Shown here: one piece after another, positions 4,249 through 39,313 of the stretch | Numbering within the stretch: the first letter of the stretch is position 1 | Layout of the letters: the number at the start of each line of letters is the position of its first letter | From: Bacilli bacterium | GTDB lineage: Bacteria; Bacillota_I; Bacilli_A; RFN20; UBA1709 | Length of the DNA stretch: 64,000 nt | Direction of reading: 5' to 3' | NCBI GenBank assembly: GCA_050949315.1 | Contig: JBMNFL010000001.1 | Coordinates: forward strand, 826,413 to 890,412 | Made by a program: the position numbers and the translations under genes | Notes under the pieces: generated by a model | Database searches by the model: none | Told to the model about the DNA's origin: nothing | Seen by the model: only the letters and a program-made list of their open reading frames with translations

Positions 4249-5201
4249 TGGAACAAGAAAAAAGAGAAATAGTTTTACAGGTTAAAAACATTGATATTGT
4301 TTTTGGCAGTGGGAAAAATGCCTTTAAGGCCATTGATAATGTTTCTTTTGATATTTATAAAGGGGAAACCTTAGCGTTAGTTGGAGAATCAGGTTCGGGT
4401 AAGACCACCATTGGACGAGCCATCGTCCGAATCAATCCATTAGCCGCGGGCGAAATTCTTTATAAAGGTGAACGCATTTCGGGTAGATTATCTAAAGGAA
4501 AAGACCGTGAAGTAATTCGTAAATTACAGATGATTTTCCAAGATCCTGCCGCCTCTTTAAATGAGCGGGCGACAATTGAATACATTATTTCTGAAGGTCT
4601 TTATAACTTCCGCCTTTTTAAGGATGAAAAAGAAAGAATTGAAAAAATTGAAAACATTATTAGAGAAGTTGGCTTGTTGCCTGAGCATTTAACAAGATAT
4701 CCTCACGAATTTTCGGGTGGTCAAAGACAAAGAATTGGTATTGCTAGATCTATTGTTATGGAACCCGAGTTTATCGTGGCTGATGAACCGATATCCGCTT
4801 TGGATGTTTCTATTAGAGCCCAAGTTTTAAATTTATTAAGGAAATTCCAAATTGAAAGAGATTTAACCTATTTATTTATCGCCCACGATCTTTCTATCGT
4901 TCGTTTTATCAGTGATCGTATTATCGTTATCTATAAGGGTAAATTAATGGAAATTGCCGAAACCGAAGAACTTTTCAAATATCCTTTGCACCCCTATACT
5001 AGATCTTTAATCTCTGCGATTCCGGTTCCTGATCCCATCATTGAAAAGAGCAAAAAACTCTTTGTCTATGATCCCAGTCTTCATGATTATAGTTCTTCTA
5101 AACCGGAACTAGTTGATATTGGTGGCGGACACTTTGTCTATGGTAATGAAGAAGAAATTGCTAGATACAAAGCTTGGCGTTTTAGAAAAGAGGCTAAATA
5201 A
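4248..5201 (+). CDS. Oligopeptide ABC transporter ATP-binding protein (OppF-like)
   Basis: [32 protein letters not shown]-terminal motif. The start overlaps the oppD stop (TAATG). RBS GAGGAGG. Confidence 0.85.
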
Positions 5202-5226
5202 CTAATCTCGTGATTAGTTATTTTTA
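5197..5226 (+). terminator. Intrinsic terminator after the opp operon
   Basis: Perfect inverted repeat AATAACTAATC/GATTAGTTATT with loop tcgt, followed by TTTT. Confidence 0.7.
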
Positions 5227-5240
5227 CGGAGTGAGCAGAA

Positions 5241-6518
5241 ATGCCGATTAATGATGAGCATCAAGAAATAGAGGTTCAAAAGTATTCACGAAAAGGATTA
5301 ATTATTCGTGCTATCTTTTTTGTGATTGCCTTAACGGTTGCTGTTGTAAGTTTTGCTCGCGCTATTAATTCCTGCTCCGAAAAGAAGCCGGGTTATTATA
5401 AAATAGAATTAAAAGAAGATGAAGAAGCACCCTTTTATGGGGCCGGAGTTAAGTTTGAATATTATTTAGATGGTGAGAGTAGTGAAATTAAAATAGCTTT
5501 AAAAAATTTAAAAAATGTTTATTCATTAGCCTTAAAACAAGCCTATATTTTAGTTGATGCGGAAAATACTTATGAAGTTTATAAAAACTTAGCTCTAGTT
5601 AATCAAAACATCGGACAAGAGGTGGAATTACACCCCTTGTTATATCCGTTGTTGAAGGAAGCGTATGAATTAACTCTATTAAGAGAAAATTATAACCTTT
5701 TTGCCAATATTCTAATTGATCGTTGGGAAGGGATTCTTTTAGCCGCTGACGATGAAAGAGACCCGCTAATCAATCTAGAAGAAGCGGCGTTTTTAGAGGA
5801 AATAGCAAGTTATGTTGATGATTTAACAAATTTTTCCTTGCTTTTTGATGATGAAAATAAAAGCGTGACTTTTAATACTTCATTAGCCTTCAAGAATTTT
5901 TATGAAACCGAAGGCCTAGATTGTGCTATTTTGGATTTTAATAGTTTAAATGAAGCGTTCAAAATAAAATTGCTGTGCAATAATCTTAAAGAGCAAGGCT
6001 ATACTAAGGGCTTTGTTGAAACCGCAGATGGATTAGTTATCAATTTAGGGACGGATTCAACTTGTTTCTATGCCATTTCCAATAAATTGGATAGTCAAAC
6101 TTATGAAAGCCCAGTAATGTCTGTTAGTAGTGAAAAGTACAAACTTTTATCACGGAGCAGAGTTTATAGTGTTAAGCAAGAAGATTATTATCGAGTAATT
6201 AATCACGAGGAGAAGAACTATTATCGACACTTAAAAATTGATGTTAAAAGTGGGAAGATTAACAATATTATAAATACTGTCAATCTTTTTGCTACCGATT
6301 TTGATATTGTACAGTTACGTTTTTTTAACTTAACAATTTATGGGTTTAATACAATTGATGGTATAAATAATCAGGTTAAAAAAATTGAGGACGAAAATCC
6401 TCAATTGTCTTTAGCTTATACTTTACAGGGGGATGATAAAGATATTTATATTTATAAAGGTGAGTTTACCGTTTTAGAAGATTCTGGTTATAATCCTAAA
6501 TATCTTCTGGCTGACTAG
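5241..6518 (+). CDS. Hypothetical membrane-anchored protein (N-terminal TM helix, large extracytoplasmic domain)
   Basis: RBS GGAGTGA, ATG 5241. One N-terminal hydrophobic helix. No recognisable catalytic motif. Confidence 0.55.
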   Translation: MPINDEHQEIEVQKYSRKGLIIRAIFFVIALTVAVVSFARAINSCSEKKPGYYKIELKEDEEAPFYGAGVKFEYYLDGESSEIKIALKNLKNVYSLALKQAYILVDAENTYEVYKNLALVNQNIGQEVELHPLLYPLLKEAYELTLLRENYNLFANILIDRWEGILLAADDERDPLINLEEAAFLEEIASYVDDLTNFSLLFDDENKSVTFNTSLAFKNFYETEGLDCAILDFNSLNEAFKIKLLCNNLKEQGYTKGFVETADGLVINLGTDSTCFYAISNKLDSQTYESPVMSVSSEKYKLLSRSRVYSVKQEDYYRVINHEEKNYYRHLKIDVKSGKINNIINTVNLFATDFDIVQLRFFNLTIYGFNTIDGINNQVKKIEDENPQLSLAYTLQGDDKDIYIYKGEFTVLEDSGYNPKYLLAD

Positions 6519-27756: not shown

Positions 27757-29065
27757 AAGTTCGCAATTTCGAGAAGGTATAGAAAAGCCATTGGGACTCC
27801 TTTAAAATGAATGGTGTCAAGACATTCAAAAAGGAGTTGGTCCCAATGACTCAAGGAAAGAATAACACAGATCTTACGGAATTGCTACTGAAATGTATGG
27901 CGGAGCCCGACCCGATGCTCAGTATGCTGGAATGGCTCTGCGCTCAACTGATGGAGGCGGAGGTTTCCGGCCTTGTGGGGGCGGAAAAGAATGCGCACAA
28001 TCCGTCTCGAAGTGACTACCGCTGCGGATATCGTCCCCGGAGGCTGGATACTCGCGTAGGGACGATGTATCTCATGGTGCCAAAGCTGCGCAGCCATGGA
28101 TATATCCCGTTCTTTGTCACTGAACGCAAACGCAGCGAGGCGGCGCTGGTACAGGTTATTCAGGAGGCATTCGTGCAGGGCGTGTCCACACGGAAGATGG
28201 AAAAGTTGGCTCACAGTCTGGGGATAGAGAACCTCTCCCGCAGTCAGGTCAGTGAGATGACAAAAGGGCTCAATGAACAGGTACAGGAATTTCGCAACCG
28301 TTCTCTGACGGATACTCGTTATCCTGTCATTTGGACGGATGCCCTGTACGAAAAAGTCCGTATGGATGGCCGTGTCGTCAGCATGGCGGTGATGGTTGTC
28401 TGCGGCGTCAACGAGCAAGGGCACAGGGACATTCTCGCCGTGGAGCCGATGCTGGACGAATCCAAAGAGAGCTATTCCCAGTTGTTTCAAAGTCTTTTGG
28501 ATCGCGGCTTGAAAACACCGCTGCTGGTGGTTTCCGATGCGAACAAAGGGCTGATTGCCGCCATCCGAGAAAGTTTTCCCGGCGCATCCTGGCAACGCTG
28601 CAAAGTGCATTTCATGCGAAATATTCTGGCCCATATACCGCAGAAAGAAAAAGAATCCTTTGCGGTCCAACTGAAAGAAATCTGGCTGGCGCCTTCCGTC
28701 CAATTAGCGCGACAGCGCGCAAAACAGTTGTCGGAGCAATATGGGAAGCGGTTTCCCAAAGCAATCGAGCTTCTGGAAGACGGGCTGGAGGACTCACTGG
28801 CTTTCTATGCATTCCCCGAGCTTGATGCCCGTAAAATCTCATCGACCAATATGCTGGAACGGCTGAACAAGGAAATCCGGCGCAGAACCAACGTCGTCGG
28901 GATATTCCCAAACAAAGATTCCTATCTGCGGTTGGTTACAACATATCTCATGGAATACGCTGAAGACTGGTCCGTTTCCAGAGCATATTTGAATCCCAAA
29001 TCGATTCAGACACTTCTGCTAAGCGCAGCTTAATTCATTTCGTGGAGTCCCCAAATTGCGAACTT
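27757..29065 (+). mobile_element. IS256-family insertion sequence (~1.3 kb)
   Basis: 13-bp terminal inverted repeats AAGTTCGCAATTT (27757-27769) / AAATTGCGAACTT (29053-29065). Each end also has a GGGACTCC / GGAGTCCC sub-terminal repeat. A single transposase ORF lies inside. Confidence 0.7.
27846..29033 (+). CDS. IS256-family (mutator-type) transposase
   Basis: Typical IS256 transposase sequence (MTQGKNNTDLTELL...DANKGLIAAI...WQRCKVHFMRN...). ATG 27846 after an AAGGAG RBS. Confidence 0.85.
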   Translation: MTQGKNNTDLTELLLKCMAEPDPMLSMLEWLCAQLMEAEVSGLVGAEKNAHNPSRSDYRCGYRPRRLDTRVGTMYLMVPKLRSHGYIPFFVTERKRSEAALVQVIQEAFVQGVSTRKMEKLAHSLGIENLSRSQVSEMTKGLNEQVQEFRNRSLTDTRYPVIWTDALYEKVRMDGRVVSMAVMVVCGVNEQGHRDILAVEPMLDESKESYSQLFQSLLDRGLKTPLLVVSDANKGLIAAIRESFPGASWQRCKVHFMRNILAHIPQKEKESFAVQLKEIWLAPSVQLARQRAKQLSEQYGKRFPKAIELLEDGLEDSLAFYAFPELDARKISSTNMLERLNKEIRRRTNVVGIFPNKDSYLRLVTTYLMEYAEDWSVSRAYLNPKSIQTLLLSAA

Positions 29066-29594: not shown

Positions 29595-29897
29595 TCACGC
29601 ATCATTATTTATGATTGCCTCTAGCTGAGGTAAGCTCCCACAAAGATCTGGGTCATAGTGTTGGTAAATCAATCTCGTAATCTGGGAAGGTTCTATTCCC
29701 GTTCTTAAAATTTTCAGCATGACAGTGCTGAAATCATCACGGTTCCCACCGTCAATTAAAGCAGCTTCATCTCCCTCAATAATTAGATAGGGATTGCAGT
29801 GAAGACCTCTGTTTTCATCAGAGTAACCGACCCAGTAAACACCCTCGGCAATATCTACCGGTTCTTTTTCTAAAGATTCCATTTTAATTTTCACGGT
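29595..29897 (-). pseudogene. N-terminal fragment (99 codons) of a flavodiiron protein (metallo-beta-lactamase-fold FprA/ROO-like)
   Basis: GTG start with an AGGAGG RBS. VYWVGYSDENRGLHCNPYLIIEGDEAALIDGG is the FDP N-terminal MBL motif. The ORF stops after 99 aa, whereas full-length FDPs are ~400 aa. Confidence 0.55.
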
Positions 29898-30757: not shown

Positions 30758-33700
30758 TCAAACCTCCTCGCTTTTTTCTATTATTTGAACAAACAGTTCG
30801 GCGATTTGCGGGTCGAACTGTGTTCCTGATCCATTCTTAATAACATCAAGAGCAGCCTGTTTGCGATCCTTTAAGGGAAAATCGCCTCTGTTAAGTACGC
30901 GGTCGTAGGTTTCAGTAACAGCAATGATCCTTGACAACAGAGGAATTTGCTCTCCCTTAAGCCCTCTCGGATATCCCTTTCCATCCCATCTTTCATGATG
31001 GCCATAAACGTATTCTGCCAGGTCGAGTGTGTCATCAAAAAGATTCAAAATTCGGTATCCAACCACAGAATGCTGCTGCATTTTTTCACGCTCATCAGCC
31101 GATAAAGTCTCCTTATTTAGGACAGCTTCATCCAGCACAATTTTACCGATATCGTGTAGATAACCCGCCCTGCTTAATTTGCTGACTTCAGTATCAGGGA
31201 GATGCAGAGCCGTGCCTAATTTTGAGCACAACTCACTTACATCAACCGAGTGCTGTTTTTCTTTTGGATTCCTCGTGTATAAAGTCTCAATAATCGTGCC
31301 AATAATTTCTTTATTGATGGACTTACGATTCATCGTTTTATCCATATACATGGCGTTTTCTGCGTTTGCCATGATCTCATCAAGCAGCTGGTCTGGGCTT
31401 CGTTTCGTATCAAGACCAAGAGCAATACTGCTCTTGATGGCCTTAACGCGGGCGTCGGCAAACCCGGATTTAATCCTGGCAAGAATTTTCTCAGCATTTT
31501 CTTTGGTTGTGTTGGGTAGAAGAATGATGAATTCGTCACCTCCGACGCGAGCGACTACATCATTCTGCCTGCAAACCTGCAGCAGTATTTCAGACGATTT
31601 TTTAATTAGCTCGTCGCCAGCTCTATGTCCAAATATATCATTGGTCATCTTCAAACCATTGATATCAGCAAAGATGACAGATAGCGGAAGATTGTCCGGA
31701 TTGTCAATTTTTGCTCGGTTGTCCTCAAAGCATTTTCTGTTGTGCAGCCCGGCCAAGGTATCGTAACAGTTCAGATACTGGATCTCAGCTTCTTTCTGTT
31801 TTCGTTCGCTTATATCCATAAAAGTTACAACAGCGCCGGTTATTTCACCGTTTTTATTCTGGGGATATGAATAATATTCCACGTCAAAAGAAGTACCGTC
31901 AGCACGCCAGAATACTTCATCCTCTACGTGGGAACCTTCCCCTTTGATAAATGCTTTGAAAATACTGCAGTCATCAATGGGGAAGGGGTTACCATCTCTG
32001 CGGGTGTGATGAATCTGCCGGTGCATATTCTTTCCTAGTAATTCTTCCTGATCACGATATCCCAGCATTTCAATACAGCTTTTATTACAGAAAGTGCAGT
32101 TGCCATTCAAGTCAATGCCGTAAATGGCCTCTGCGGCTGTATCCAATATCAACTGAAGTTCGTCTTTACTCTCCTCCAATTGAAAATTCGCAATATGAAG
32201 CTCCTGGGTACGTTTCTGCACGTTAAACTCCAGGTTTTCTATAAACGATTGCATTTTGTCGGCAACCTTATTAAAGCTGTTTGATATCTGGCCAATTTCG
32301 TCATTTCGGATAATATCAACTCTTTTAGACAGGTTGCCGGAAGATAATTCATCAGATACCTGCAACAGGTTTTTCATTGGCCTTTTGCTTTTCAAAAACT
32401 CGAGCGCGTCTTCTTCATTAAGCGGCTTGCTGAACAGATATCCCTGTATCCTATCACAGTTGTGTTCTTGCAAATACTGTAACTGGCATTCGTGTTCGAC
32501 CCCTTCAGCAATTGTGCAGTGCCCAAGCTTATGTGACATCGAAATAATATCGCTTGTTATTGCTTTACTCAGGTCTGCATCTAACAACTTATCAATAAAA
32601 TACTTGTCAATTTTTAAGCAGTCGACGCTCAGCTCTTTTTCTCTGGCTAGGGAGGAATAACCAGTTCCAAAGTCATCTATAGCTATGTGAAGTCCGGTTT
32701 CCCTCAGTTTCTCGATAATGCTATTAACGGCTTCATAATCGGAGGCAAAGACCGATTCGGTAATCTCAATGCCAATATTCCGGGGATTAACCTGCATCTC
32801 GCTCATTAATTCAAACAGCCTGCTTGTAAAATCAGGTTTTAATAGCTGAATAGCAGAAATATTGATTGAAACGCCGACTTCATCATATCCACTCGCATTA
32901 AGCTTATTAAGGAAATGAAACGCGTTGACAATCACTTTTTCACCAATCGGTATAATGAGCTTTGTCTCTTCGGCAATCGGTATAAATTCAACCGGTGACA
33001 CCAGTCCGTGTTTTTCTGTTTTTAACCGTGCTAGCGCTTCAAACCCACAAACAGCATTTGTCTGTAGCTCAACAATCGGTTGGTATTGCAAAAACAACTC
33101 ATCATTAGTGCTTTCAAGAACTACGCCCGTAAGTGCTTCCCGGATGTCTCTTTCGCGGTTTATCTCAGCCTCCAGTTCCTCATTATAAAAACAAGCCTCA
33201 AAGTCTTTTTGTGAAACAGCAATAGATCTTTCTGACGCAATCAAGAGCTTTCTTAAGAGTAAATCCACATCGATTTCATCAACGTCCTGCTCAATTTCGA
33301 ATATCCCAATCCCGCCGCCTATTCGTTCAGTTGCAAATAAGGCTTCTAATGCTTCTGCTATGATATCGCTAAATTCAACCAGGTCGTTCTTGTCTTTGTA
33401 ATCAACAAGATAGAAGACAAACCGATTTTCATAGGTTTGGAACAGTAAGCGGGTATCGGAGCAATGCTGACTCAGTGTTTCAGCAGCCATTTTTATAAGG
33501 TTCTGTGTATAGTGAAACCCATAATTAGCGGTTAATAACTCAACTGTACTCAAATTGATACTGATGACTGCTCTTTTTAATCCATCCTTTTTCTTGATAT
33601 CATTATTCAGAAGCGCATCCAAATAATCACGATTATACAAGCCTGTCCATTTGTCATGCTCATTTATGTATCTGAGATGGTTCTCCATCTCTTTTCTGTC

Positions 33701-35263
33701 TGAGATATCGAGGATTATTCCTTCCAGCGCTTCAACTTCACCCTCATCATTATATATTCCTTGTCCCATCTCAAGAACCCATTTTCTTTTGCCGCTTGCA
33801 GTGATAATCTCATACTCATATCTAAACGGCTGCCCTTTTTCAAGGATTCGCTTCAATTCGTTCCACAATGCTTCGCGGTATTCAGGGGAAATGAGATCAT
33901 TATACGATAGGTCTCTATTGTTTAACAAGCTTTCGGATTTGTATCCAGTCAGATCATAGCAACCTTTTGAAACGTACTGCATCGTCCAGTCATGATCATA
34001 TTTGCACTTGTAAGCCAAGCCCGGTAGGTGAGACATTAGAATAGATTCTCTCCGTTCGTTCTCCCTCAATGCAAACTCAAAAAGTTTGCGTGGCGTAATG
34101 TCACGGGAGGAGCCTTGAAATCCCACCGCATTACCATTATCATCGCGGATGAAAGAAATACTCAACTCCAGCCAGATAACGGTGCCGTCTGCTTTATAAT
34201 GTTCAACTTCGATCGTCCGCGACCTGTTTTTATCAATTTCGGGATCTTTTTCTTTTTCTAACTCTTCATAAAAAATCGATTGGATTTTATGCAACGTTTG
34301 TGCTGGAAATTTCTCTTCCATCTTCCTATTCATATGCTCTTCGATGGATTCTCCAAGGAGTTTTTCAACAGAGGGACTTACATACGTCGTTTTCAGGGTT
34401 AAATCCATCTGCCAGACAACGTCTGACATATTTTCTGTGATGCTTCGATATTTCTTTTCGCTTTCAATCAGCGCAGCCATAGCGGCTTTTTGGTTGGTAA
34501 TGTCCTGAATAAGACACATATGATTAAGCTTGTTTTCCGCTAAAGGAGCAATAGACGCAACGACCATATATACCCATGCAACCGATCCATCGGGTTTAAC
34601 ATATCGCTTCTCCATTGAATAGCTTTTAATTTCACCGGCCTGCAGTTTATTAAAATTTTCTATATCTTCATCCAGGTCGTCCGGATATGTAATCTTTGCC
34701 CAGCCTAAATTAATGAGCTCTTCTTTTGTTCTGCCTGTAATTTGTTCATATGCAGAGTTTATTTTTATAATATCCTTGTCAGAGTGTTTAGGATCACGGC
34801 TGTGAGAAATTGCTATGCCAATAGGGGCCTCTTCAAAAAGCCTATCAAAGGCAAGAGTGTGTTCGTCAATTTTCTGCGATAGTGCTTGCTGAGCTCGCAT
34901 CAGTGCTACATGAACATTGATCCTGGCTTTCAATGAATCCATATGAAGTGGCTTTCGGATATAGTCTACGGCACCAAGCTTTAAGCCCTTGATTTCATTA
35001 TCCAATTCATCATAATTAGTCAATATTATGGTGCGCAGCTTCCGAAACCGCTCATCCCGATTCAATGATTCGAGAACCTGAAAACCATTCATATTAGGCA
35101 TATTGAGATCGAGTATGAGCAAGTTGATTTCATCATTCTCCGCAAGTACACGCAAAGCCTCTATACCGTCGCAAACAGTCAACACGGTATACTCACTGAG
35201 CATGTTTTTGATGATCAATCTGTCCGACGCCGAGTCGTCAGCTACTAAAATTTTAATTAGCAT
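30758..35263 (-). CDS. Giant multidomain c-di-GMP signalling protein: REC - 3xPAS - degenerate GGDEF - EAL - HAMP-like - PAS - GGDEF - HD-GYP
   Basis: Domain-by-domain:
- N-terminal receiver (ILVADDSASDRLI...LILDLNMPNMNG);
- three PAS segments;
- a GGDEF fold with YENRF in place of GGDEF;
- EAL (QPIVEL...GFEALAR...DDFGTGYSS...QGYLFSKP);
- a linker, then a fourth PAS;
- an intact GGDEF (ARVGGDEFIILL);
- HD-GYP (HDIGKI...HHERWDGKGYP).
ATG 35263 has an AAGGAGG RBS. The listed ORF start 35290 adds 9 unsupported codons. Confidence 0.8.
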   Translation of the reverse strand: MLIKILVADDSASDRLIIKNMLSEYTVLTVCDGIEALRVLAENDEINLLILDLNMPNMNGFQVLESLNRDERFRKLRTIILTNYDELDNEIKGLKLGAVDYIRKPLHMDSLKARINVHVALMRAQQALSQKIDEHTLAFDRLFEEAPIGIAISHSRDPKHSDKDIIKINSAYEQITGRTKEELINLGWAKITYPDDLDEDIENFNKLQAGEIKSYSMEKRYVKPDGSVAWVYMVVASIAPLAENKLNHMCLIQDITNQKAAMAALIESEKKYRSITENMSDVVWQMDLTLKTTYVSPSVEKLLGESIEEHMNRKMEEKFPAQTLHKIQSIFYEELEKEKDPEIDKNRSRTIEVEHYKADGTVIWLELSISFIRDDNGNAVGFQGSSRDITPRKLFEFALRENERRESILMSHLPGLAYKCKYDHDWTMQYVSKGCYDLTGYKSESLLNNRDLSYNDLISPEYREALWNELKRILEKGQPFRYEYEIITASGKRKWVLEMGQGIYNDEGEVEALEGIILDISDRKEMENHLRYINEHDKWTGLYNRDYLDALLNNDIKKKDGLKRAVISINLSTVELLTANYGFHYTQNLIKMAAETLSQHCSDTRLLFQTYENRFVFYLVDYKDKNDLVEFSDIIAEALEALFATERIGGGIGIFEIEQDVDEIDVDLLLRKLLIASERSIAVSQKDFEACFYNEELEAEINRERDIREALTGVVLESTNDELFLQYQPIVELQTNAVCGFEALARLKTEKHGLVSPVEFIPIAEETKLIIPIGEKVIVNAFHFLNKLNASGYDEVGVSINISAIQLLKPDFTSRLFELMSEMQVNPRNIGIEITESVFASDYEAVNSIIEKLRETGLHIAIDDFGTGYSSLAREKELSVDCLKIDKYFIDKLLDADLSKAITSDIISMSHKLGHCTIAEGVEHECQLQYLQEHNCDRIQGYLFSKPLNEEDALEFLKSKRPMKNLLQVSDELSSGNLSKRVDIIRNDEIGQISNSFNKVADKMQSFIENLEFNVQKRTQELHIANFQLEESKDELQLILDTAAEAIYGIDLNGNCTFCNKSCIEMLGYRDQEELLGKNMHRQIHHTRRDGNPFPIDDCSIFKAFIKGEGSHVEDEVFWRADGTSFDVEYYSYPQNKNGEITGAVVTFMDISERKQKEAEIQYLNCYDTLAGLHNRKCFEDNRAKIDNPDNLPLSVIFADINGLKMTNDIFGHRAGDELIKKSSEILLQVCRQNDVVARVGGDEFIILLPNTTKENAEKILARIKSGFADARVKAIKSSIALGLDTKRSPDQLLDEIMANAENAMYMDKTMNRKSINKEIIGTIIETLYTRNPKEKQHSVDVSELCSKLGTALHLPDTEVSKLSRAGYLHDIGKIVLDEAVLNKETLSADEREKMQQHSVVGYRILNLFDDTLDLAEYVYGHHERWDGKGYPRGLKGEQIPLLSRIIAVTETYDRVLNRGDFPLKDRKQAALDVIKNGSGTQFDPQIAELFVQIIEKSEEV

Positions 35264-35312
35264 TATGAATCCTCCTTCTTTAACCCACACCCACTCCAGG
35301 CTTTTTTTGACT

Positions 35313-35876
35313 TTATTTTAGTTCCTCAAGCAGTTTCCCAAGTAATTTAGAAAACCTGTCTTGTAATGGCACTATTTCATCTTCCTTTTCTTCATTAAAA
35401 GCTTTCTGTAATAACGCAGCTACAGCCTGCAGTGATTTAGCACCGATACTTCCGGAACTGCTCTTAACCTTATGTACGATTTGTGTAGCTTCAGTGTATC
35501 TTTTTTCACGTACTGCCGCTTCAAGCTTTTCCAAAGTATCTTGATTCTCGTTGCGGTATTCAATTAGCACCTGATTATACAATTCTTCGTTGCCGCCCAT
35601 ATTTTTAAAGCCTAGCTGCCGGTCAAGGACAGCTGTATCCGGTTCTATATTAGGTTCATTTTCAAGGATAATATCTTTTATGGTTTGAATAAAGTGATCG
35701 GGATTAATGGGCTTACTGATGTAATGAAATATTCCGCTTTGCTCGCACTTGTCCCGAACACCTAAAATCACATCCGCTGTCATTGCTATAATAGGGACTT
35801 GGCTTGAAATCGATCGGATATTCTCCGCCGCTTCATAGCCGTTCATGACAGGCATGTGCAAATCCATCAATATCAA
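35313..35876 (-). CDS. Truncated receiver (REC) domain fused to an Hpt phosphotransfer domain; likely N-terminally disrupted
   Basis: MILMDLHMPVMNG...IIAMTADV is the middle and C-terminal part of a receiver; it lacks the beta1 DD pocket. C-terminal Hpt motif HKVKSSSGSIGA. The REC reading frame is closed by a TGA upstream. Confidence 0.5.
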   Translation of the reverse strand: MILMDLHMPVMNGYEAAENIRSISSQVPIIAMTADVILGVRDKCEQSGIFHYISKPINPDHFIQTIKDIILENEPNIEPDTAVLDRQLGFKNMGGNEELYNQVLIEYRNENQDTLEKLEAAVREKRYTEATQIVHKVKSSSGSIGAKSLQAVAALLQKAFNEEKEDEIVPLQDRFSKLLGKLLEELK

Positions 35877-36061
35877 ATCGATGATGTCACGATGCTTCTG
35901 ATATAGCTCAACAGCTTCCTTTCCGTCGTTGGCAATATGAACCTGTTGACCTCATCGCGCTTCATTCGCATGATACGGTAGATGCCGAAATCAAGGTCAG
36001 ACTGGTCAAACTGAAACATCTCGCGGAGGATGCTCATTAATTTTTTCTGGTTATCAGTCAT
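35873..36061 (-). CDS. Short ORF (62 aa), apparently the N-terminal remnant of a disrupted gene; start overlaps the XRE gene stop (ATGA)
   Basis: MTDNQKKLMSILREMFQFDQSDLDFGIYRIM... runs 40 codons and then into the out-of-frame REC fragment. Confidence 0.35.
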   Translation of the reverse strand: MTDNQKKLMSILREMFQFDQSDLDFGIYRIMRMKRDEVNRFILPTTERKLLSYIRSIVTSSI

Positions 36062-36303
36062 TTTGTGGTACCTTCTTTCCCGCTGCCCGTGGCAGCGGCA
36101 TCATCGGGAATTGTTTCCATGATGTCTGTTATATCGCACTGAAGAACATCGCATATCTTTAACAGAACAGCGGTTGTAACATTCTCGTCTTTTCCGAGCT
36201 TCGCAAGTGAGGACGAGCTGATACCCGCTGCTTGTCGTAGCTCAGTTTTCTTCATGTTTCTGTCAATTAACAACTTCCACAGCTTCTTATAACTCATCTT
36301 CAT
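36058..36303 (-). CDS. XRE-family helix-turn-helix transcriptional regulator
   Basis: HTH_XRE signature (KTELRQAAGISSSSLAKLGKDENVTTAVLLKICDVLQC). Confidence 0.75.
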   Translation of the reverse strand: MKMSYKKLWKLLIDRNMKKTELRQAAGISSSSLAKLGKDENVTTAVLLKICDVLQCDITDIMETIPDDAAATGSGKEGTTK

Positions 36304-37945
36304 TGTCTGTCACCTCTTTATTCCATGATTCGCCGTACAGTTCGCAATTACCATCCGACAATTTCAAAACAGTATTACCCGTCAGAATGCGCTGCGTGTC
36401 TGGTTTATACGCAGCCTGTTTATCAAAGGCGATAAACACCTGTTTTGTACTTTGAACGTATATTTTCATAATGCCGTCGACAGCACCATCGCCGATGTTT
36501 TTCAAAATTAACGAATCGTGCGCTATGGCCGGTAGTGCAGTCAGGTTGAGTATTGCCAAGTCATAGATGACCATGCCTTTGTAATTCGAGCCTGTGCCGG
36601 TATCATCCGGCGTTTCAAACCTGTAACTGTTGTACTCGTTGAATGTGAGGCGCGGCGCTTTCCGCACGTCTGCAAAGAGCGAATCGTTATATTCCTTCAT
36701 TCTATCATTGATAGCACGTTCAATCTCATCAAGGATGCTTTCTATCGCGTGTTTCAACATTTCGTCAGCTTTTTTCTTTGCATCCTGCAGCTCGGTCAAT
36801 GTAAGGTACGCTTCATTCTGTGCTTTCAGCGCATCAATATGACCTTTAATTTCCGAATGCATATCCAAAAATTCTTTGGACAGGTTGCCGACAAAACCGA
36901 GCTGGTTGATTTCTGTCTGCACTGACTGGATTTGTTCCAGCAAAGCAGCAATCTCCAACTCGACCGATTGGCGCTCGCTTTTGAACTGTTCATCGAGTAT
37001 GGTCGCCAGCTTCTGATGGTATTTTTCTACTTCATACAGCTTCCGAATGTTCACATCAGGGAAAAACTCCTGTAAAGCAGATAAATCTGCTTCTGTCGGA
37101 TATAGACCATACGCGAGGCTAATATCCAGGAGGCTTACTCGGCGGCGTTTTGCCTGCAAATCGGTTTCGAGACGCAGCTTACTGCCCTGAAGCTGTGATT
37201 TTAAACGACTCTTTTCAATGTCTGCTTCGTTATGGCCTTCCACCTGTTCATCAGTCAGATTATCAAGCTGAACCTGCAGGCTGTGTATTTGCGCCAGATT
37301 TTCGTCATATTTTGTTTTGCCTCCAACGAGGTCAGGGACAAAGCGATACTTTCGGGCTTCTCGGAAAATCGACAGCCGCTTTTTCTGCTCCTCAAGATTG
37401 CCGTTGAAGGCTTCAATGTCCTTATATCTGTCAAACAGGCGGACAAGAATTTCGATGGATTTTTGCATTCCTTCTCCGGGCAAGCCCTTGAGAGGTTTGC
37501 GCTCATCGGTATTTTCTTTTCCGTATATCCTGAAGAAGCTGCTCATTGTCTCGCGGAAGGATAGCCCTGCGAAATCAATATGGTATTTTTCTTTCAACCA
37601 GTCGGCAAACTGCTGCTTCGTCCATACAACTCCTGTCAGCACATATCCCTCTGAGCATACATGAATATCGGTGGGCGATTCGGTACTGCGGGCAAAGTAG
37701 TACGGCGTTCCATCAAATTCAAATGTAAAGAAGATAGTGTGATTGCCAATGTGCTTCACACCATCACTGACAAGGTACGAGTTGCCACCAAAAGCAAAAT
37801 CAATGGCAAGCATGGCAGAGGATTTTCCGATTGAGTTTTCGCCATCCTCTTTTCCGAGAACGACGTTCAATCCCTCTTTGAAGCGGATTGGAGGTCGTTC
37901 TTTTCCTTTTTCCTTAAAGACCGGCGAGGTGATTTCTATAAGCAT
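36287..37945 (-). CDS. P-loop ATPase with long central coiled coil (ABC/SMC-like; LmuB/ABC-three-component ATPase-like)
   Basis: N-terminal Walker A (GKEDGENSIGKSS) in an SMC/RecF-type head. About 250 aa of heptad-rich coiled coil. C-terminal segment with acidic Walker-B-like hhhhD (MVIYDLAIL) and AHDS. RBS GAAAGGAGAGG. Confidence 0.65.
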   Translation of the reverse strand: MLIEITSPVFKEKGKERPPIRFKEGLNVVLGKEDGENSIGKSSAMLAIDFAFGGNSYLVSDGVKHIGNHTIFFTFEFDGTPYYFARSTESPTDIHVCSEGYVLTGVVWTKQQFADWLKEKYHIDFAGLSFRETMSSFFRIYGKENTDERKPLKGLPGEGMQKSIEILVRLFDRYKDIEAFNGNLEEQKKRLSIFREARKYRFVPDLVGGKTKYDENLAQIHSLQVQLDNLTDEQVEGHNEADIEKSRLKSQLQGSKLRLETDLQAKRRRVSLLDISLAYGLYPTEADLSALQEFFPDVNIRKLYEVEKYHQKLATILDEQFKSERQSVELEIAALLEQIQSVQTEINQLGFVGNLSKEFLDMHSEIKGHIDALKAQNEAYLTLTELQDAKKKADEMLKHAIESILDEIERAINDRMKEYNDSLFADVRKAPRLTFNEYNSYRFETPDDTGTGSNYKGMVIYDLAILNLTALPAIAHDSLILKNIGDGAVDGIMKIYVQSTKQVFIAFDKQAAYKPDTQRILTGNTVLKLSDGNCELYGESWNKEVTDNEDEL

Positions 37946-38112
37946 GAATATACCTCTCCTTTCTCATTGATGTCTATTGCGTTAAGCGCATATAGGCAGT
38001 CCATAACCGACAAAAAATCCGTTGCGTCGGAAAGCGAAGGCTTTATCCGAAGATAAAGGTCTTTCACTGCGATTGGATTATCTTGTACCTCTTTGAGCAC
38101 CGTTGGAATCAT
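37936..38112 (-). CDS. Small protein (58 aa) between the HNH-like and ATPase genes (possible middle component)
   Basis: ATG at 38112 (minus). The stop overlaps the ATPase start. No clear RBS, so the call is tentative. The longer listed 106-aa ORF overlaps the upstream gene. Confidence 0.3.
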   Translation of the reverse strand: MIPTVLKEVQDNPIAVKDLYLRIKPSLSDATDFLSVMDCLYALNAIDINEKGEVYSCL

Positions 38113-38143
38113 CGCCAAGGTGCTGTTTTTATATGAATACAGC

Positions 38144-39313
38144 TTATTCGGTAATTGCATCGAACACCTCACAGCTCTGCACGAAGTACGAAACCACAAT
38201 CTGGCAGAAAATTGCGTCCTGTAGCGTAACACGATGTATTTTATCTGCGATTTCATTGAAGATTTCGAGATGCGGTTTGTTTGCCTTTTTTAGTTTCTTA
38301 TACAATGCGTGAATCTGGTCTTGGATTTCATCGTAGTCAATTTCGCCGCTTTTATCCAGATTTATCATTATTTCTTTTATGCGTATGAAGTATGTGGTGA
38401 CGTAGTTGGTTACCGCATTGTAAAGCACCATGTCCTGAGACGGGCTAAGTTTCTGCTTGACTTCCTTTGGTTCAAAGGAAGCATCAGACAATTCCTTTTC
38501 CCCGAGTTTCCGTATTCTTTTGATTACGCCGACAATGCCCTTTTCCAAAGGCAGGTCATCAAGAAGACGGATGCTTTGTTTATGCGTAGACAACACCGTT
38601 TTTATTTCCTTTAGTTCAGCCATCAACTTCTTGCTGTCATCAAGGAGATATGTGGCATAGCACTGCGGGCACATTGCCATGAGGTTTTCGGGCGTAGTCG
38701 CTTTAGATTTATCTATCAAGCTAACTTCAAATGTATGAATGGCTTTTCCGTTTTTTGAAATAGTTAGCTGCCTCCCGCACCCCGGGAATGGACAGCACCC
38801 ATCTGTTTCTGCAAGTAAATAATCGCCGTACTTTTTCTTCAAATCGGATGCAAGAATCTGTTGCTGCTGTTTCTGGAGTTCATCCTGCGGAATCAGCCCA
38901 GCAGACTCCTGAATAATTTGTTCCAGCCATTCGGTGACTTTTTCTGCAACATTATCTGCATTTATGGTCGGTTCATAACCGACTAAATCCTCTGCAAATA
39001 AAGCCCTTGAAGCGGGGCTTCGCTTGCTTATGCTCCGTGTAAGTATTTTAGGTGTTAGATGATACACGATATTTCCCGCTAAATTCTTGGATAAACCTCG
39101 TTTTACATAGCTGCGAATGGTGTTATCGCTGAGTTTTGCGGAAGGGTCTTTACCCTTTGCCCAGTCAGCCTCAGATACAGTCGTAATCTTTGCCATTAAT
39201 TCGCGGAAAAAATACGGCACATCATCACCGTCGGCTAAATGCTTTTTCATAATTGGGAAAAGTGTTTTGAATTCCACGTCGGCTCGACACTCCTTTACTG
39301 AGATTTGCACCAC
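38144..39313 (-). CDS. HNH-nuclease-motif protein (putative effector of the ATPase-linked system)
   Basis: CCPFPGCGRQL...IHTFEV...ENLMAMCPQCY matches the CxxC...H...N...CxxC(H/Y) HNH zinc-finger layout. The rest is alpha-helical. GTG start is uncertain. Confidence 0.55.
   Translation of the reverse strand: MVQISVKECRADVEFKTLFPIMKKHLADGDDVPYFFRELMAKITTVSEADWAKGKDPSAKLSDNTIRSYVKRGLSKNLAGNIVYHLTPKILTRSISKRSPASRALFAEDLVGYEPTINADNVAEKVTEWLEQIIQESAGLIPQDELQKQQQQILASDLKKKYGDYLLAETDGCCPFPGCGRQLTISKNGKAIHTFEVSLIDKSKATTPENLMAMCPQCYATYLLDDSKKLMAELKEIKTVLSTHKQSIRLLDDLPLEKGIVGVIKRIRKLGEKELSDASFEPKEVKQKLSPSQDMVLYNAVTNYVTTYFIRIKEIMINLDKSGEIDYDEIQDQIHALYKKLKKANKPHLEIFNEIADKIHRVTLQDAIFCQIVVSYFVQSCEVFDAITE

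What the first reader, a model, noticed from the sequence alone, without database searches (positions are those of the whole stretch)
30758..35876. 1,502-aa c-di-GMP hub protein (REC-3xPAS-GGDEF*-EAL-HAMP-PAS-GGDEF-HD-GYP) with an upstream Hpt-bearing partner
Both classes of c-di-GMP phosphodiesterase (EAL and HD-GYP) and two GGDEF domains (one degenerate, YENRF) sit in one polypeptide headed by a phospho-receiver. The gene directly upstream encodes an Hpt domain, suggesting control by a phosphorelay. GC content (~40%) differs from both the host block and the phage block.
Basis: partly seen in the sequence, partly recalled or inferred. Interest (0 to 1): 0.6.

Follow-up and report, generated by a model that had tools for sequence, protein, structure and literature searches.

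The report
Two c-di-GMP genes fused by deletion
The 1,501-residue signalling protein is real, but it arose when a 1.1-kb deletion joined two neighbouring c-di-GMP enzyme genes, and the "Hpt partner" upstream is only the leftover tail of a destroyed sensor kinase gene.

Summary
The ORF exists (minus strand 30758-35263, 1,501 aa). EAL, the second GGDEF (with an RxxD I-site) and HD-GYP keep their catalytic motifs.

It is a recent in-frame gene fusion. In the closest relatives (L007, 95% nt identity; L004; L015) the same DNA holds two overlapping genes. One is a 972-aa REC-PAS3-GGDEF*-EAL regulator. The other is a ~915-aa membrane sensor, dCache-HAMP-PAS-GGDEF-HD-GYP. A 1,135-nt deletion removed the regulator's last 12 codons and the sensor's first 372 codons (TM-dCache-TM). 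The splice lies exactly at the start of HAMP.

It is not an assembly artefact. The same junction occurs in three diverged 1,501-aa alleles and in a 1,315-aa derivative, from NCBI, JGI and ENA assemblies.

The upstream "Hpt gene" is the last ~210 codons of a ~1,000-aa BvgS/RocS1-type unorthodox kinase. That kinase is intact in more distant relatives. Here it is cut off at a defence island and prophage boundary.

The GC offset is trivial. EAL plus HD-GYP in one chain is rare but not unique. Interest is modest.

The parts
30758..35263 (-). Fused c-di-GMP gene, 1,501 codons plus stop; ATG at 35263 follows AGGAGG
   Evidence: The exact protein is on public contigs.
34916..35251 (-). Receiver (REC) domain, aa 5-116. 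D9/D10, phospho-acceptor D52, T82 and K104 are all present.
   Evidence: Pfam (76 bits); motif positions
33674..34846 (-). Three PAS domains, about aa 140-530. The printed Pfam stretches cover ~277-517; the first PAS (~145-265) is read from the sequence.
   Evidence: Pfam PAS_3, PAS_9 and PAS_4 hits
33164..33643 (-). Degenerate GGDEF domain, about aa 541-700. YENRF (aa 611-615, nt 33419-33433) replaces GG(D/E)EF. My reading of the sequence suggests the metal- and substrate-binding positions are also changed (no alignment was run on this domain).
   Evidence: Second GGDEF stretch; motif position; sequence
32423..33109 (-). EAL phosphodiesterase domain, aa 719-947, with all catalytic motifs: EALAR 742, N in SINIS, EITES, DDFGTGYSSL 863, KIDK, EGVE, QGY
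   Evidence: Pfam (212 bits); alignment to MorA 4rnh; motif positions
32381..32383 (-). Fusion junction, the hybrid codon 961 (AGG). Gene-1 sequence ends at codon 960; gene-2 sequence resumes at its codon 372/373.
   Evidence: blastn against the L007 and L004 gene pairs; sequences
32249..32383 (-). HAMP domain, aa 961-1005. It is orphaned: the transmembrane helix that precedes it in the parent gene is deleted.
   Evidence: Pfam; parent gene; no TM segment
31811..32161 (-). Fourth PAS domain, aa 1035-1151, with a conserved Cys/His set (C1056, H1081, H1085, C1099)
   Evidence: Pfam; conservation over 129 representatives
31325..31765 (-). Intact GGDEF diguanylate cyclase domain, aa 1167-1313. GGDEF is at 1241; the RxxD I-site (RQND, 1232) lies five residues upstream.
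   Evidence: Pfam; alignment to a solved diguanylate cyclase, 4urs; motif positions
30803..31285 (-). HD-GYP domain, aa 1327-1487, with H1338, HD 1370-71, H1398, HH 1422-23, GYP and D1454
   Evidence: Pfam HD_5; alignments to 4mcw, 4r8z and 5z7c; motif positions
35313..35951 (-). 3' remnant of an unorthodox histidine kinase gene: the last ~210 codons, comprising the C-terminal part of the D1 receiver plus Hpt. The open frame begins after an in-frame TGA at 35952-35954. The called ORF is 35313-35876.
   Evidence: The intact ~1,000-aa homologue lies upstream of the EAL gene in L017, L019, L021, L024 and L025. Only HK residues ~770-993 are present in the window.
35873..36061 (-). 62-codon ORF. 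Its first ~41 codons are the N-terminus of a large type III-like methyltransferase. It then runs out of frame into the kinase remnant. It marks the breakpoint at about 35937-35951.
   Evidence: PADLOC MTase_III profile positions 6-49 of 1057

Best explanation
SHOWN: the 1,501-aa ORF is a recent in-frame fusion of two adjacent, normally separate c-di-GMP genes. Gene 1 encodes a 972-aa response regulator, REC-PAS-PAS-PAS-GGDEF(degenerate)-EAL. Gene 2 overlaps gene 1's end and encodes a ~915-aa membrane sensor enzyme, TM-dCache-TM-HAMP-PAS-GGDEF-HD-GYP.

A 1,135-nt deletion at a 2-nt microhomology joined codon 960 of gene 1 to codon 372 of gene 2. It removed gene 1's 12-residue tail and stop codon. 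It also removed gene 2's entire extracellular sensor and both membrane anchors. The frame was restored. The junction falls exactly at the first residue of HAMP.

The fused allele has a single origin. It persists in several diverged strains.

SHOWN: the ORF just upstream is the 3' scar of the kinase gene that sits in this position in relatives. That kinase is a SBP_bac_3-HisKA-HATPase-REC-Hpt unorthodox kinase. It is cut at the edge of a defence island and prophage.

INFERRED: the product is a soluble cytoplasmic enzyme.
- Its EAL domain linearises c-di-GMP to pGpG.
- Its HD-GYP domain hydrolyses c-di-GMP and/or pGpG to GMP.
- Its C-terminal GGDEF can still make c-di-GMP under I-site feedback.
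- The degenerate GGDEF is a non-catalytic scaffold.

The C-terminal module has lost extracellular control. It is probably left under the control of its own Cys/His-bearing PAS domain, and possibly of the conformational state of the upstream EAL dimer passed through the orphan HAMP.

The N-terminal REC is phosphorylatable, but it has lost its cis-encoded kinase. It must be unphosphorylated, use acetyl phosphate, or be served by a kinase encoded elsewhere.
For: Fusion:
- blastn: window gene nt 1-2881 matches L007 gene-pair nt 1-2881 at 94.9%. Window nt 2883-4506 matches L007 4018-5641 at 92.7%. The same break appears against L004.
- Unfused pairs with called genes and Pfam domains are seen in L004, L005 and L007 and in L015.
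- The parent gene 2 has dCache_1, HAMP, PAS, GGDEF and HD_5.

Not an artefact:
- The identical protein is on 4 JGI contigs from 3 samples and in an NCBI MAG on a 1.01-Mb contig.
- Two further 1,501-aa alleles from ENA differ at 92 and 136 residues and carry the same junction, KSKRPMKNLL.
- A 1,315-aa derivative with the same junction is on 7 contigs from at least 5 samples.
- L008 is ~100% identical to the window from just before the junction to the end, but only 87% upstream.

Catalytic competence:
- EAL, GGDEF2 and HD-GYP, with motif positions.
- dN/dS against L007 is 0.17 and 0.12 for the two halves.
- There is no TM segment; the maximum 19-residue hydropathy is 1.23.

Kinase scar. Different scars of the same kinase gene occur in L004 (residues 44-115 plus 946-983) and L007 (950-976), and in L008 (last ~20 codons).

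From the literature:
- HD-GYP enzymes hydrolyse c-di-GMP via pGpG, and PA4781 prefers pGpG (PMC3774798).
- A pGpG-specific HD-GYP-type enzyme, PggH, is known (PMC8861645).
Against: - No enzymatic, expression or phosphorylation data exist for this protein or any close relative. Every activity is predicted from motifs.
- The locus looks eroded. The kinase is destroyed. The downstream ODP gene is cut to 99 codons, with an IS256-family transposase about 0.5 kb further downstream. A sister allele has lost HAMP and PAS as well. The fusion could therefore be tolerated rather than useful.
- The low dN/dS mostly reflects history before the fusion.
- The Glu that ligates the third metal in PmGH aligns with Lys here, with a Glu one residue later. 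Full hydrolysis to GMP is therefore uncertain.
- No promoter-like site stands out upstream of the gene.
Confidence: 0.8

Rival explanations
1. The fusion is a neutral or mildly harmful by-product of decay in a rearranging hot spot. The chimeric protein would be misregulated or inactive and on its way to loss.
For: - The neighbouring kinase gene is reduced to a scar.
- The downstream ODP gene is truncated, with an IS element a short distance beyond it.
- A derivative allele has a second 558-nt in-frame deletion that removes HAMP and PAS.
- HAMP has lost the transmembrane input it normally needs.
Against: - A 4.5-kb reading frame is intact and every catalytic motif is preserved.
- At least three diverged full-length alleles keep the same junction. 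Their post-junction half is almost invariant, at 5-12 differences in 541 residues. This fits persistence and spread rather than rapid loss.
- Related proteins elsewhere also have EAL fused to PAS-GGDEF-HD-GYP without a sensor (P0017, P0022-24, P0241).
Confidence: 0.13
2. This is the first reader's model: a working phosphorelay in which the upstream ORF is expressed as a free Hpt protein. It would pass phosphate from a hybrid kinase elsewhere to the REC domain of the large protein.
For: - The Hpt domain is complete and has the HKVKSSSGSIGA histidine motif.
- The same remnant is retained at 97-98% identity in other assemblies and is annotated there as a response regulator.
- The kinase-then-regulator gene order is conserved in distant relatives.
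- Free Hpt proteins and Hpt scars next to REC-EAL regulators are known in the Pseudomonas Roc system (PMC12051241).
Against: - The ORF starts inside a receiver domain at a TTG or ATG with no Shine-Dalgarno sequence. An in-frame TGA and an out-of-frame methyltransferase fragment lie just upstream.
- Other strains keep only 20-38 codons of it, so it is not conserved as a unit.
- No kinase domains are found anywhere in the 64-kb window.
Confidence: 0.08
3. The long ORF is an assembly or sequencing artefact.
For: - The window comes from metagenome-type data and lies between mobile elements with three GC regimes.
- Most close homologues stop at 972 aa.
Against: - The junction has only 2 nt of microhomology, so no repeat is available for an assembler to mis-join.
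- The junction recurs in independent assemblies from JGI, ENA and NCBI with different flanking alleles.
- The 1,160 nt downstream of the gene are 99.8% identical and collinear with L007.
Confidence: 0.02
4. The polarity is reversed: the long form is ancestral, and relatives split it into two genes.
For: - Sensor-less long forms (EAL-PAS-GGDEF-HD-GYP) exist in other Clostridia.
- The C-terminal tail of the 972-aa proteins (KNKYDCHSNDSRD) resembles the inter-domain linker of P0024.
Against: - Gene 2's TM-dCache-TM-HAMP head belongs to a large family of ~900-aa proteins. Of the best 150 cluster representatives, 102 carry GGDEF plus HD-GYP without EAL.
- The window keeps the HAMP but not the membrane helix that HAMP requires.
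- The nearest relatives (95% nt) are unfused.
- All fused alleles share one junction and a near-identical 3' half.
Confidence: 0.03

Closest known systems
Composite GGDEF-EAL phosphodiesterases with an inactive GGDEF, for example P. aeruginosa MorA (PDB 4rnh); also, from my own knowledge and not tested here, PdeA/CC3396-type enzymes and FimX-type REC-PAS-GGDEF*-EAL proteins
   Same: - The N-terminal two-thirds has the order REC-PAS-GGDEF(degenerate)-EAL.
- The EAL domain aligns best with MorA (E = 3e-46) and shares all catalytic motifs.
   Different: - The EAL here is followed by a second complete enzyme module.
- By my reading of the sequence, the degenerate GGDEF has also lost the metal- and substrate-binding positions. 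The GTP-sensing role known for CC3396 (my own knowledge) is therefore not implied.
dCache-HAMP-PAS-GGDEF-HD-GYP membrane sensor enzymes (uncharacterised family), and GGDEF-HD-GYP and dCache-HD-GYP combinations listed by Galperin and Chou (bioRxiv 10.1101/2021.11.05.467447)
   Same: - The C-terminal 540 residues are 92.7% identical in DNA to the corresponding part of such a gene in L007.
- 102 of the best 150 cluster representatives carry GGDEF plus HD-GYP without EAL.
   Different: The extracellular dCache sensor and both membrane helices are deleted. HAMP is now attached to the end of an EAL domain.
Sensor-less EAL-PAS-GGDEF-HD-GYP proteins in other Clostridia (P0017, 1,195 aa with REC; P0022-P0029 and P0241, about 1,400 aa, membrane-anchored at the N-terminus)
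   Same: - EAL and HD-GYP are in one chain, in the same order, with the same PAS-GGDEF-HD-GYP module at 50-61% identity.
- The survey paper mentions HD-GYP associated with a 'GGDEF-EAL pair'.
   Different: - Those proteins have a ~30-residue linker and no HAMP between EAL and PAS, with different linker sequences.
- The window's junction is its own, younger event.
RocS1/RocR and BvgS-type phosphorelays. An unorthodox SBP_bac_3 kinase (H1-D1-H2) feeds a REC-EAL regulator. The rocS3 scar next to rocR3 is a direct precedent (PMC12051241).
   Same: - In relatives L017 and L019 the upstream gene is SBP_bac_3-HisKA-HATPase_c-REC-Hpt, immediately followed by the REC-...-EAL gene.
- In Pseudomonas, loss of the kinase left Hpt-only or H1-only scars next to the EAL regulator.
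   Different: - The lineage here is Bacillota, and the regulator carries three PAS domains and a degenerate GGDEF.
- Phosphotransfer has not been shown.
- In the window the kinase is a scar.
RpfG family response regulators (REC-HD-GYP)
   Same: REC and a catalytically equipped HD-GYP sit in one polypeptide.
   Different: The two domains are ~1,200 residues apart, separated by nine other domains that come from two genes. Direct REC-to-HD-GYP control as in RpfG or PA4781 cannot be assumed.

Membership tests
EAL c-di-GMP phosphodiesterase (PF00563) | Domain model match above the curated threshold | tested here: met
   212 bits against a cut-off of 31.3, aa 719-947
EAL c-di-GMP phosphodiesterase (PF00563) | Catalytic and metal-binding residues and loop 6: E of EAL, N, ExxE, DDFG(T/A)GYSS, K, EGVE, Q | tested here: met
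   All are present and aligned with active MorA 4rnh
EAL c-di-GMP phosphodiesterase (PF00563) | Hydrolysis of c-di-GMP to pGpG | not testable with these tools
   Needs an enzyme assay
GGDEF diguanylate cyclase (PF00990), C-terminal copy | GG(D/E)EF active site, metal- and GTP-binding residues, and optionally an RxxD I-site | tested here: met
   GGDEF at 1241, RQND at 1232, FADING, and NDxxGHxxGD at 1206-1217. Aligned to a solved diguanylate cyclase, 4urs.
GGDEF diguanylate cyclase (PF00990), central copy | GG(D/E)EF active site | tested here: not met
   YENRF at 611-615. By my reading of the sequence, INLS replaces the metal-binding DxD region. This copy is a degenerate domain, not a cyclase.
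HD-GYP phosphodiesterase (HD_5, PF13487) | Domain model match, HD dyad and GYP motif | tested here: met
   113 bits against a cut-off of 27.2. HDIGK at 1370 and HHERWDGKGYP at 1422.
HD-GYP phosphodiesterase (HD_5, PF13487) | Full set of metal ligands, as in the trinuclear PmGH site | tested here: inconclusive
   H, HD, H, HH and D align with PmGH 4mcw. The Glu ligand position is Lys, with a Glu one residue downstream.
Two-component response regulator (REC) | Acidic pocket, phospho-acceptor Asp, and conserved Thr and Lys | tested here: met
   D9, D10, D52, T82 and K104
Two-component response regulator (REC) | Cognate kinase or phosphodonor encoded alongside | tested here: not met
   Only HK residues ~770-993 survive upstream. 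No HisKA or HATPase_c is found in the 64-kb window.
Unorthodox (H1-D1-H2) histidine kinase, for the upstream ORF | HisKA and HATPase_c, a complete D1 receiver, and Hpt | tested here: not met
   Only profile positions 45-110 of the receiver plus Hpt are present. The intact form is seen in L017 and L019. The upstream ORF is a remnant, not a member.
HAMP signal converter (PF00672) | Domain model match | tested here: met
   37.9 bits against a cut-off of 25, aa 961-1005
HAMP signal converter (PF00672) | Usual placement directly after a transmembrane helix, which delivers the input | tested here: not met
   No hydrophobic segment is present; the maximum 19-residue hydropathy is 1.23. In the parent gene HAMP follows ...LSLLLSALICNLFMNKYLK.
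RpfG family (REC-HD-GYP) | REC directly, or through one PAS or GAF domain, upstream of HD-GYP | tested here: not met
   Nine domains from two ancestral genes lie between them

The most novel reading that the evidence does not exclude
The conserved gene pair and its repeated fusions may be a Rosetta-stone signal. This would mean that, in these Bacillota, the EAL enzyme and the GGDEF-HD-GYP enzyme work as one physical unit. EAL would open c-di-GMP to pGpG, and the tethered HD-GYP would clear pGpG to GMP. This would avoid pGpG feedback inhibition without Orn. The resident GGDEF and the Cys/His PAS domain would set the direction of flux. The window's allele would be a natural experiment in which this unit has been cut loose from both of its external inputs: the dCache ligand and the cognate kinase.
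Probability: 0.18. Interest if true: 0.55.

Novelty: new variant of a known kind. Interest (0 to 1): 0.35.

Why it matters
All ten domains belong to well-known families, so no new biochemistry is implied. The value lies in three points.

1. This is an unusually clean, datable gene fusion. Both the parent state (two overlapping genes) and the product are available at 95% DNA identity. The breakpoint can be resolved to the nucleotide. It shows how large multi-output c-di-GMP proteins arise and how sensor domains are lost.

2. EAL and HD-GYP in one chain is rare. Only 3 of the best 150 cluster representatives have both, and I found no report of such a protein being studied biochemically. The recurring adjacency and fusion of the two modules suggests a functional coupling that could be tested with the fused and unfused natural alleles.

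3. It is a caution for annotation. The neighbouring "response regulator" or "Hpt protein" entries in public records are kinase scars.

Tried and rejected
- Assembly chimera: rejected. The junction has no repeat, and it recurs in independent assemblies with diverged flanks.
- Foreign origin from GC content: rejected as uninformative. The gene is 41.3% GC, pyrG in the same 'host' block is 39.2%, and the orthologous pair in L004 is 40-41.6%. The 32-36% stretch is a low-GC gene cluster that includes a Wzy_C-family (O-antigen ligase) gene.
- Stand-alone REC-Hpt protein as the parent of the upstream ORF: considered because the homologue search returned only short proteins. Rejected after tblastn and Pfam showed ~1,000-aa SBP_bac_3-HisKA-HATPase-REC-Hpt genes at the same position in L017, L019, L021, L024 and L025. 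Many of the short hits are contig-end fragments or scars.
- The other half of the kinase elsewhere in the window: not found. The window ends inside the prophage, so a simple-insertion model could not be tested.
- Promoter and terminator scan around the gene: no more sites than in shuffled sequence, so it was uninformative.
- Literature search for 'GGDEF-EAL-HD-GYP': no paper found. Only a passing mention of HD-GYP with a GGDEF-EAL pair turned up.
- Structure prediction: not run. Domain assignments were unambiguous at sequence level.
Full report
**1. What is in the sequence**

On the minus strand an ORF runs from 35290 (GTG) to 30758. An ATG at 35263 lies 7 nt after AGGAGG and gives a 1,501-aa product. 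This is the product called in public assemblies.

Pfam reports the following, all above the curated cut-offs:
- Response_reg, aa 5-116
- PAS-family hits (PAS_3, PAS_9, PAS_4); the printed stretches cover ~277-517, and I read a further PAS at ~145-265 from the sequence
- GGDEF, two stretches
- EAL, aa 719-947
- HAMP, aa 961-1005
- PAS, aa 1035-1151
- GGDEF, aa 1167-1313
- HD_5/HD, aa 1327-1487

The central GGDEF has YENRF at 611-615. The C-terminal copy has GGDEF at 1241, with RQND five residues upstream.

The protein has no hydrophobic segment; the maximum 19-residue Kyte-Doolittle value is 1.23. It is predicted to be cytoplasmic.

**2. Catalytic equipment**

- The EAL segment aligns best with the active phosphodiesterase MorA (4rnh, E = 3e-46). 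It keeps EALAR, the Asn, EITES, DDFGTGYSSL, KIDK, EGVE and QGY.
- The C-terminal GGDEF aligns with a solved diguanylate cyclase (4urs). It keeps the metal, guanine-binding, I-site and GGDEF residues.
- The HD-GYP segment aligns with PmGH (4mcw), PA4781 (4r8z) and V-cGAP3 (5z7c). It keeps H, HD, H, HH, D and GYP.
- The one deviation in HD-GYP is at the position of the PmGH Glu that binds the third metal. It is Lys here, with a Glu one residue later.
- By my reading of the sequence, the central GGDEF has lost the signature motif and also the metal- and substrate-binding positions. I treat it as non-catalytic.
- The REC domain has D9, D10, D52, T82 and K104.

**3. The ORF is a fusion of two neighbouring genes**

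A homologue search showed that the closest relatives (78-95% identity, including Eubacterium aggregans) are 961-973 aa and end just after EAL. They cover only 64% of the query.

Their genomic context was examined in L004/L005, L007 and L015:
- The 972-aa gene is followed by a separate gene of 912-917 aa, overlapping it by 17-32 nt.
- This second gene has dCache_1, HAMP, PAS, GGDEF and HD_5.
- It also has N-terminal and pre-HAMP hydrophobic helices.

blastn of the window gene against the L007 pair gives two collinear blocks:
- nt 1-2881 matches 1-2881 at 94.9%
- nt 2883-4506 matches 4018-5641 at 92.7%

So 1,135 nt are missing. The three sequences at the breakpoint are:
- parent gene 1: ...TTG AAA AGT AAA | AAT AAA TAT...
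- parent gene 2: ...TAT CTT | AAG CCA ATA AAA AAC CTG...
- window: ...TTG AAA AGC AAA AGG CCA ATG AAA AAC CTG...

The join is at a 2-nt AA microhomology. Because gene 2 is in the +1 frame relative to gene 1, a deletion of 3n+1 bases restores the frame.

The deletion removed:
- the last 12 codons and the stop codon of gene 1
- codons 1-372 of gene 2, that is TM1, the dCache sensor and TM2

The join is exactly at the RP(I/M)KNLL start of HAMP. This explains why a HAMP domain sits in the middle of a soluble protein.

**4. It is real and has persisted**

- The window is 100% identical to two JGI contigs (L002, L003) and 96.8% identical to a third (L001).
- The exact protein is also NCBI MGI6378214.1, from a MAG labelled 'Bacilli bacterium', on a 1.01-Mb contig.
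- Two further 1,501-aa alleles from ENA assemblies differ at 92 and 136 residues. Nearly all the differences are in the gene-1 part (80 and 131, against 12 and 5 after the junction). Both alleles have the same junction, KSKRPMKNLL.
- A 1,315-aa derivative (P0001) is on 7 contigs from at least 5 samples. It has the same junction plus a second in-frame 558-nt deletion that removes HAMP and PAS.
- A sliding identity plot shows a mosaic pattern against L007, with blocks at 100% next to blocks at 84-90%. L008 becomes ~100% identical to the window from just before the junction onwards.

My reading is a single fusion event, followed by allelic recombination in the 5' part.

dN/dS against L007 is 0.17 and 0.12 for the two halves. 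This mainly reflects pre-fusion history.

An assembler artefact is excluded. There is no repeat at the junction, and it recurs in independent data sets.

**5. The 'Hpt partner' is a scar**

- The ORF 35313-35876 contains receiver profile positions 45-110 only, followed by Hpt.
- Reading the same frame upstream adds about 25 more receiver-like residues (VHIANDGKEAVELYQKHRDIID). It then meets a TGA at 35952-35954.
- The overlapping 62-codon ORF (35873-36061) begins as the N-terminus of a ~1,057-aa type III-like methyltransferase (PADLOC profile positions 6-49). It runs out of frame into the receiver remnant.
- So there is a breakpoint at about 35937-35951.

tblastn of the remnant against related loci finds it as the C-terminus of a ~980-1,010-aa gene. 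That gene lies immediately upstream of the REC-PAS-GGDEF-EAL gene in L017, L019, L021, L024 and L025. In L017 and L019 the gene is SBP_bac_3-HisKA-HATPase_c-REC-Hpt. This is an unorthodox BvgS/RocS1-type kinase.

The window holds only kinase residues ~770-993 and nothing else of it. Other strains carry different scars:
- L004 has residues 44-115 joined to 946-983.
- L007 has residues 950-976.
- L008 has the last ~20 codons.
- P0122 has the remnant fused to an unrelated N-terminus.

A kinase-to-regulator phosphorelay is thus the ancestral state, conserved in distant relatives. In the window's lineage the kinase is gone. A close precedent exists in Pseudomonas, where loss of a RocS1-like kinase left Hpt-only or H1-only scars next to the REC-EAL regulator RocR3 (PMC12051241).

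**6. Surroundings**

- Upstream of the scar lie HTH_26, a DUF2326/LmuB-like 552-aa protein, an MC7 middle component and a CTD11/LmuA-like protein. Together these form an ABC-3C/Lamassu-like defence set.
- Beyond that is a 52% GC prophage with a family A DNA polymerase, an SNF2 helicase, a primase-polymerase fused to a methylase, and TerL.
- Downstream, 1,160 nt are 99.8% identical to L007. There the ODP/metallo-beta-lactamase gene is cut to 99 codons. About 0.5 kb further on lies an IS256-family transposase at 52% GC.
- The 'host block' contains pyrG (39.2% GC) and a low-GC gene cluster that includes a Wzy_C-family gene.
- The 41% GC of the fused gene matches its orthologues (L004, 40-41.6%). 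It is not evidence of separate origin.

**7. How common is the architecture?**

A search of 1.84 billion cluster representatives with residues 701-1501, followed by domain tabulation of the best 150, gave:
- 102 representatives with GGDEF plus HD-GYP and no EAL (the gene-2 family), 37 of them with a recognisable HAMP
- 3 representatives with both EAL and HD-GYP: P0241 (1,388 aa), P0242 (a fragment) and P0342 (GGDEF-HD-GYP-EAL order)

None has HAMP between EAL and PAS. In the first search, P0017 (REC-bearing, 1,195 aa) and P0022-P0029 (~1,425 aa) also join EAL to PAS-GGDEF-HD-GYP. They do so through short linkers that differ from one another.

The HD-GYP survey by Galperin and Chou mentions association with a 'GGDEF-EAL pair' in passing. 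No paper uses the string GGDEF-EAL-HD-GYP.

The combination is therefore rare and, as far as I could find, uncharacterised, but it is not unique. The window's version, with a retained orphan HAMP and REC at the head, is its own variant.

**8. Mechanism**

Shown:
- the fusion origin
- the loss of the dCache and TM input
- the loss of the cis kinase
- intact catalytic motifs

Inferred:
- The protein is a soluble c-di-GMP turnover enzyme dominated by degradation.
- EAL gives pGpG. HD-GYP enzymes hydrolyse c-di-GMP through pGpG to GMP, and some prefer pGpG (PMC3774798, PMC8861645).
- The C-terminal GGDEF can synthesise c-di-GMP under I-site feedback.
- The remaining sensory elements are the four PAS domains.
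- The fourth PAS carries a Cys/His set (C1056 92%, H1081 83%, H1085 77%, C1099 80%) conserved across 129 family representatives. This suggests a metal or haem cofactor and redox or gas sensing.
- Whether the orphan HAMP transmits anything from the EAL dimer is speculation.
- The REC domain is intact. Its phosphodonor is unknown.

**9. Verdict**

The architecture is right. The partner gene and the GC inference are wrong. The key fact, a recent deletion fusion, was missed.
- It is a new variant of a known kind, of modest interest. It is a clean evolutionary example and a possible handle on EAL/HD-GYP cooperation.

Noticed in passing
window 36058-39313 (minus strand): A four-gene defence-type cassette lies directly upstream of the kinase scar. 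It comprises a CTD11 protein with a LmuA-like N-terminus (389 aa), an MC7/MC6 middle component (106 aa), a DUF2326/LmuB-like ATPase (552 aa) and an HTH_26 protein (81 aa). This is an ABC-3C/Lamassu-like system. It is at 42-45% GC, between the host DNA and the 52% GC prophage.
   Followed up: partly
window 35873-36061 (minus strand): A 62-codon ORF whose first ~41 codons match the extreme N-terminus of a ~1,057-aa type III-like methyltransferase profile. The rest of that gene is absent. It marks a second truncated gene at the same breakpoint as the kinase scar.
   Followed up: partly
window 31811-32161 (aa 1035-1151 of the fused protein): The PAS domain ahead of GGDEF-HD-GYP carries CTFCNKSC, two nearby His residues and a further Cys. 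C1056, H1081, H1085 and C1099 are 77-92% conserved across 129 cluster representatives of the GGDEF-HD-GYP family. This may be a metal-, haem- or Fe-S-binding sensor PAS. No literature match was sought.
   Followed up: partly
window 27807-29033 (+) and 29595-29894 (-): An IS256-family (Transposase_mut) gene at 52% GC lies about 0.5 kb from an ODP/metallo-beta-lactamase gene cut to 99 codons. The ODP gene is at least 241 codons long in L007. Collinearity with L007 ends about 1,160 nt downstream of the fused gene.
   Followed up: partly
window 39700-64000: A prophage-like block at 52% GC. It has a sigma-70 region 4 protein, an SNF2 helicase, a family A DNA polymerase with exonuclease, and TerL. 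It also has a 1,000-aa protein that joins an NrS-1-type primase-polymerase helix-bundle domain to an N6/N4 DNA methylase. In L001 the polymerase and helicase genes are called in pieces, and the region is only 96.8% identical to the window overall.
   Followed up: partly
L004:7557-7969, L007:2277-2357, L008:3137-3250; protein P0122: The same kinase gene has decayed differently in different strains. L004 has an internal deletion that joins the SBP_bac_3 head to the Hpt tail. L007 and L008 keep 20-30 terminal codons, next to a ResIII/YagJ-type gene. In P0122 the remnant is fused to an unrelated N-terminus. The site upstream of the regulator gene behaves as a hot spot for island turnover.
   Followed up: partly
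L008:3251-7198 (protein P0001, 1,315 aa): A sister allele of the fused gene has a second in-frame 558-nt deletion. It joins ...QVS(D/E) directly to EAEIQYLN and removes HAMP and the fourth PAS, which leaves EAL abutting GGDEF-HD-GYP. It is present on 7 contigs from at least 5 JGI samples.
   Followed up: yes
protein P0342 (1,105 aa): A different arrangement of the same enzyme set, GGDEF-HD-GYP-EAL, with EAL at the C-terminus. This shows that EAL and HD-GYP have been combined at least twice, in different orders.
   Followed up: no
L004:13644-14627; L008:8096-8989: In relatives a third c-di-GMP gene (PAS-GGDEF, about 300-330 aa) follows the gene pair. No counterpart lies downstream of the fused gene in the window; the only tblastn hits fall on the fused gene's own GGDEF domain.
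   Followed up: partly
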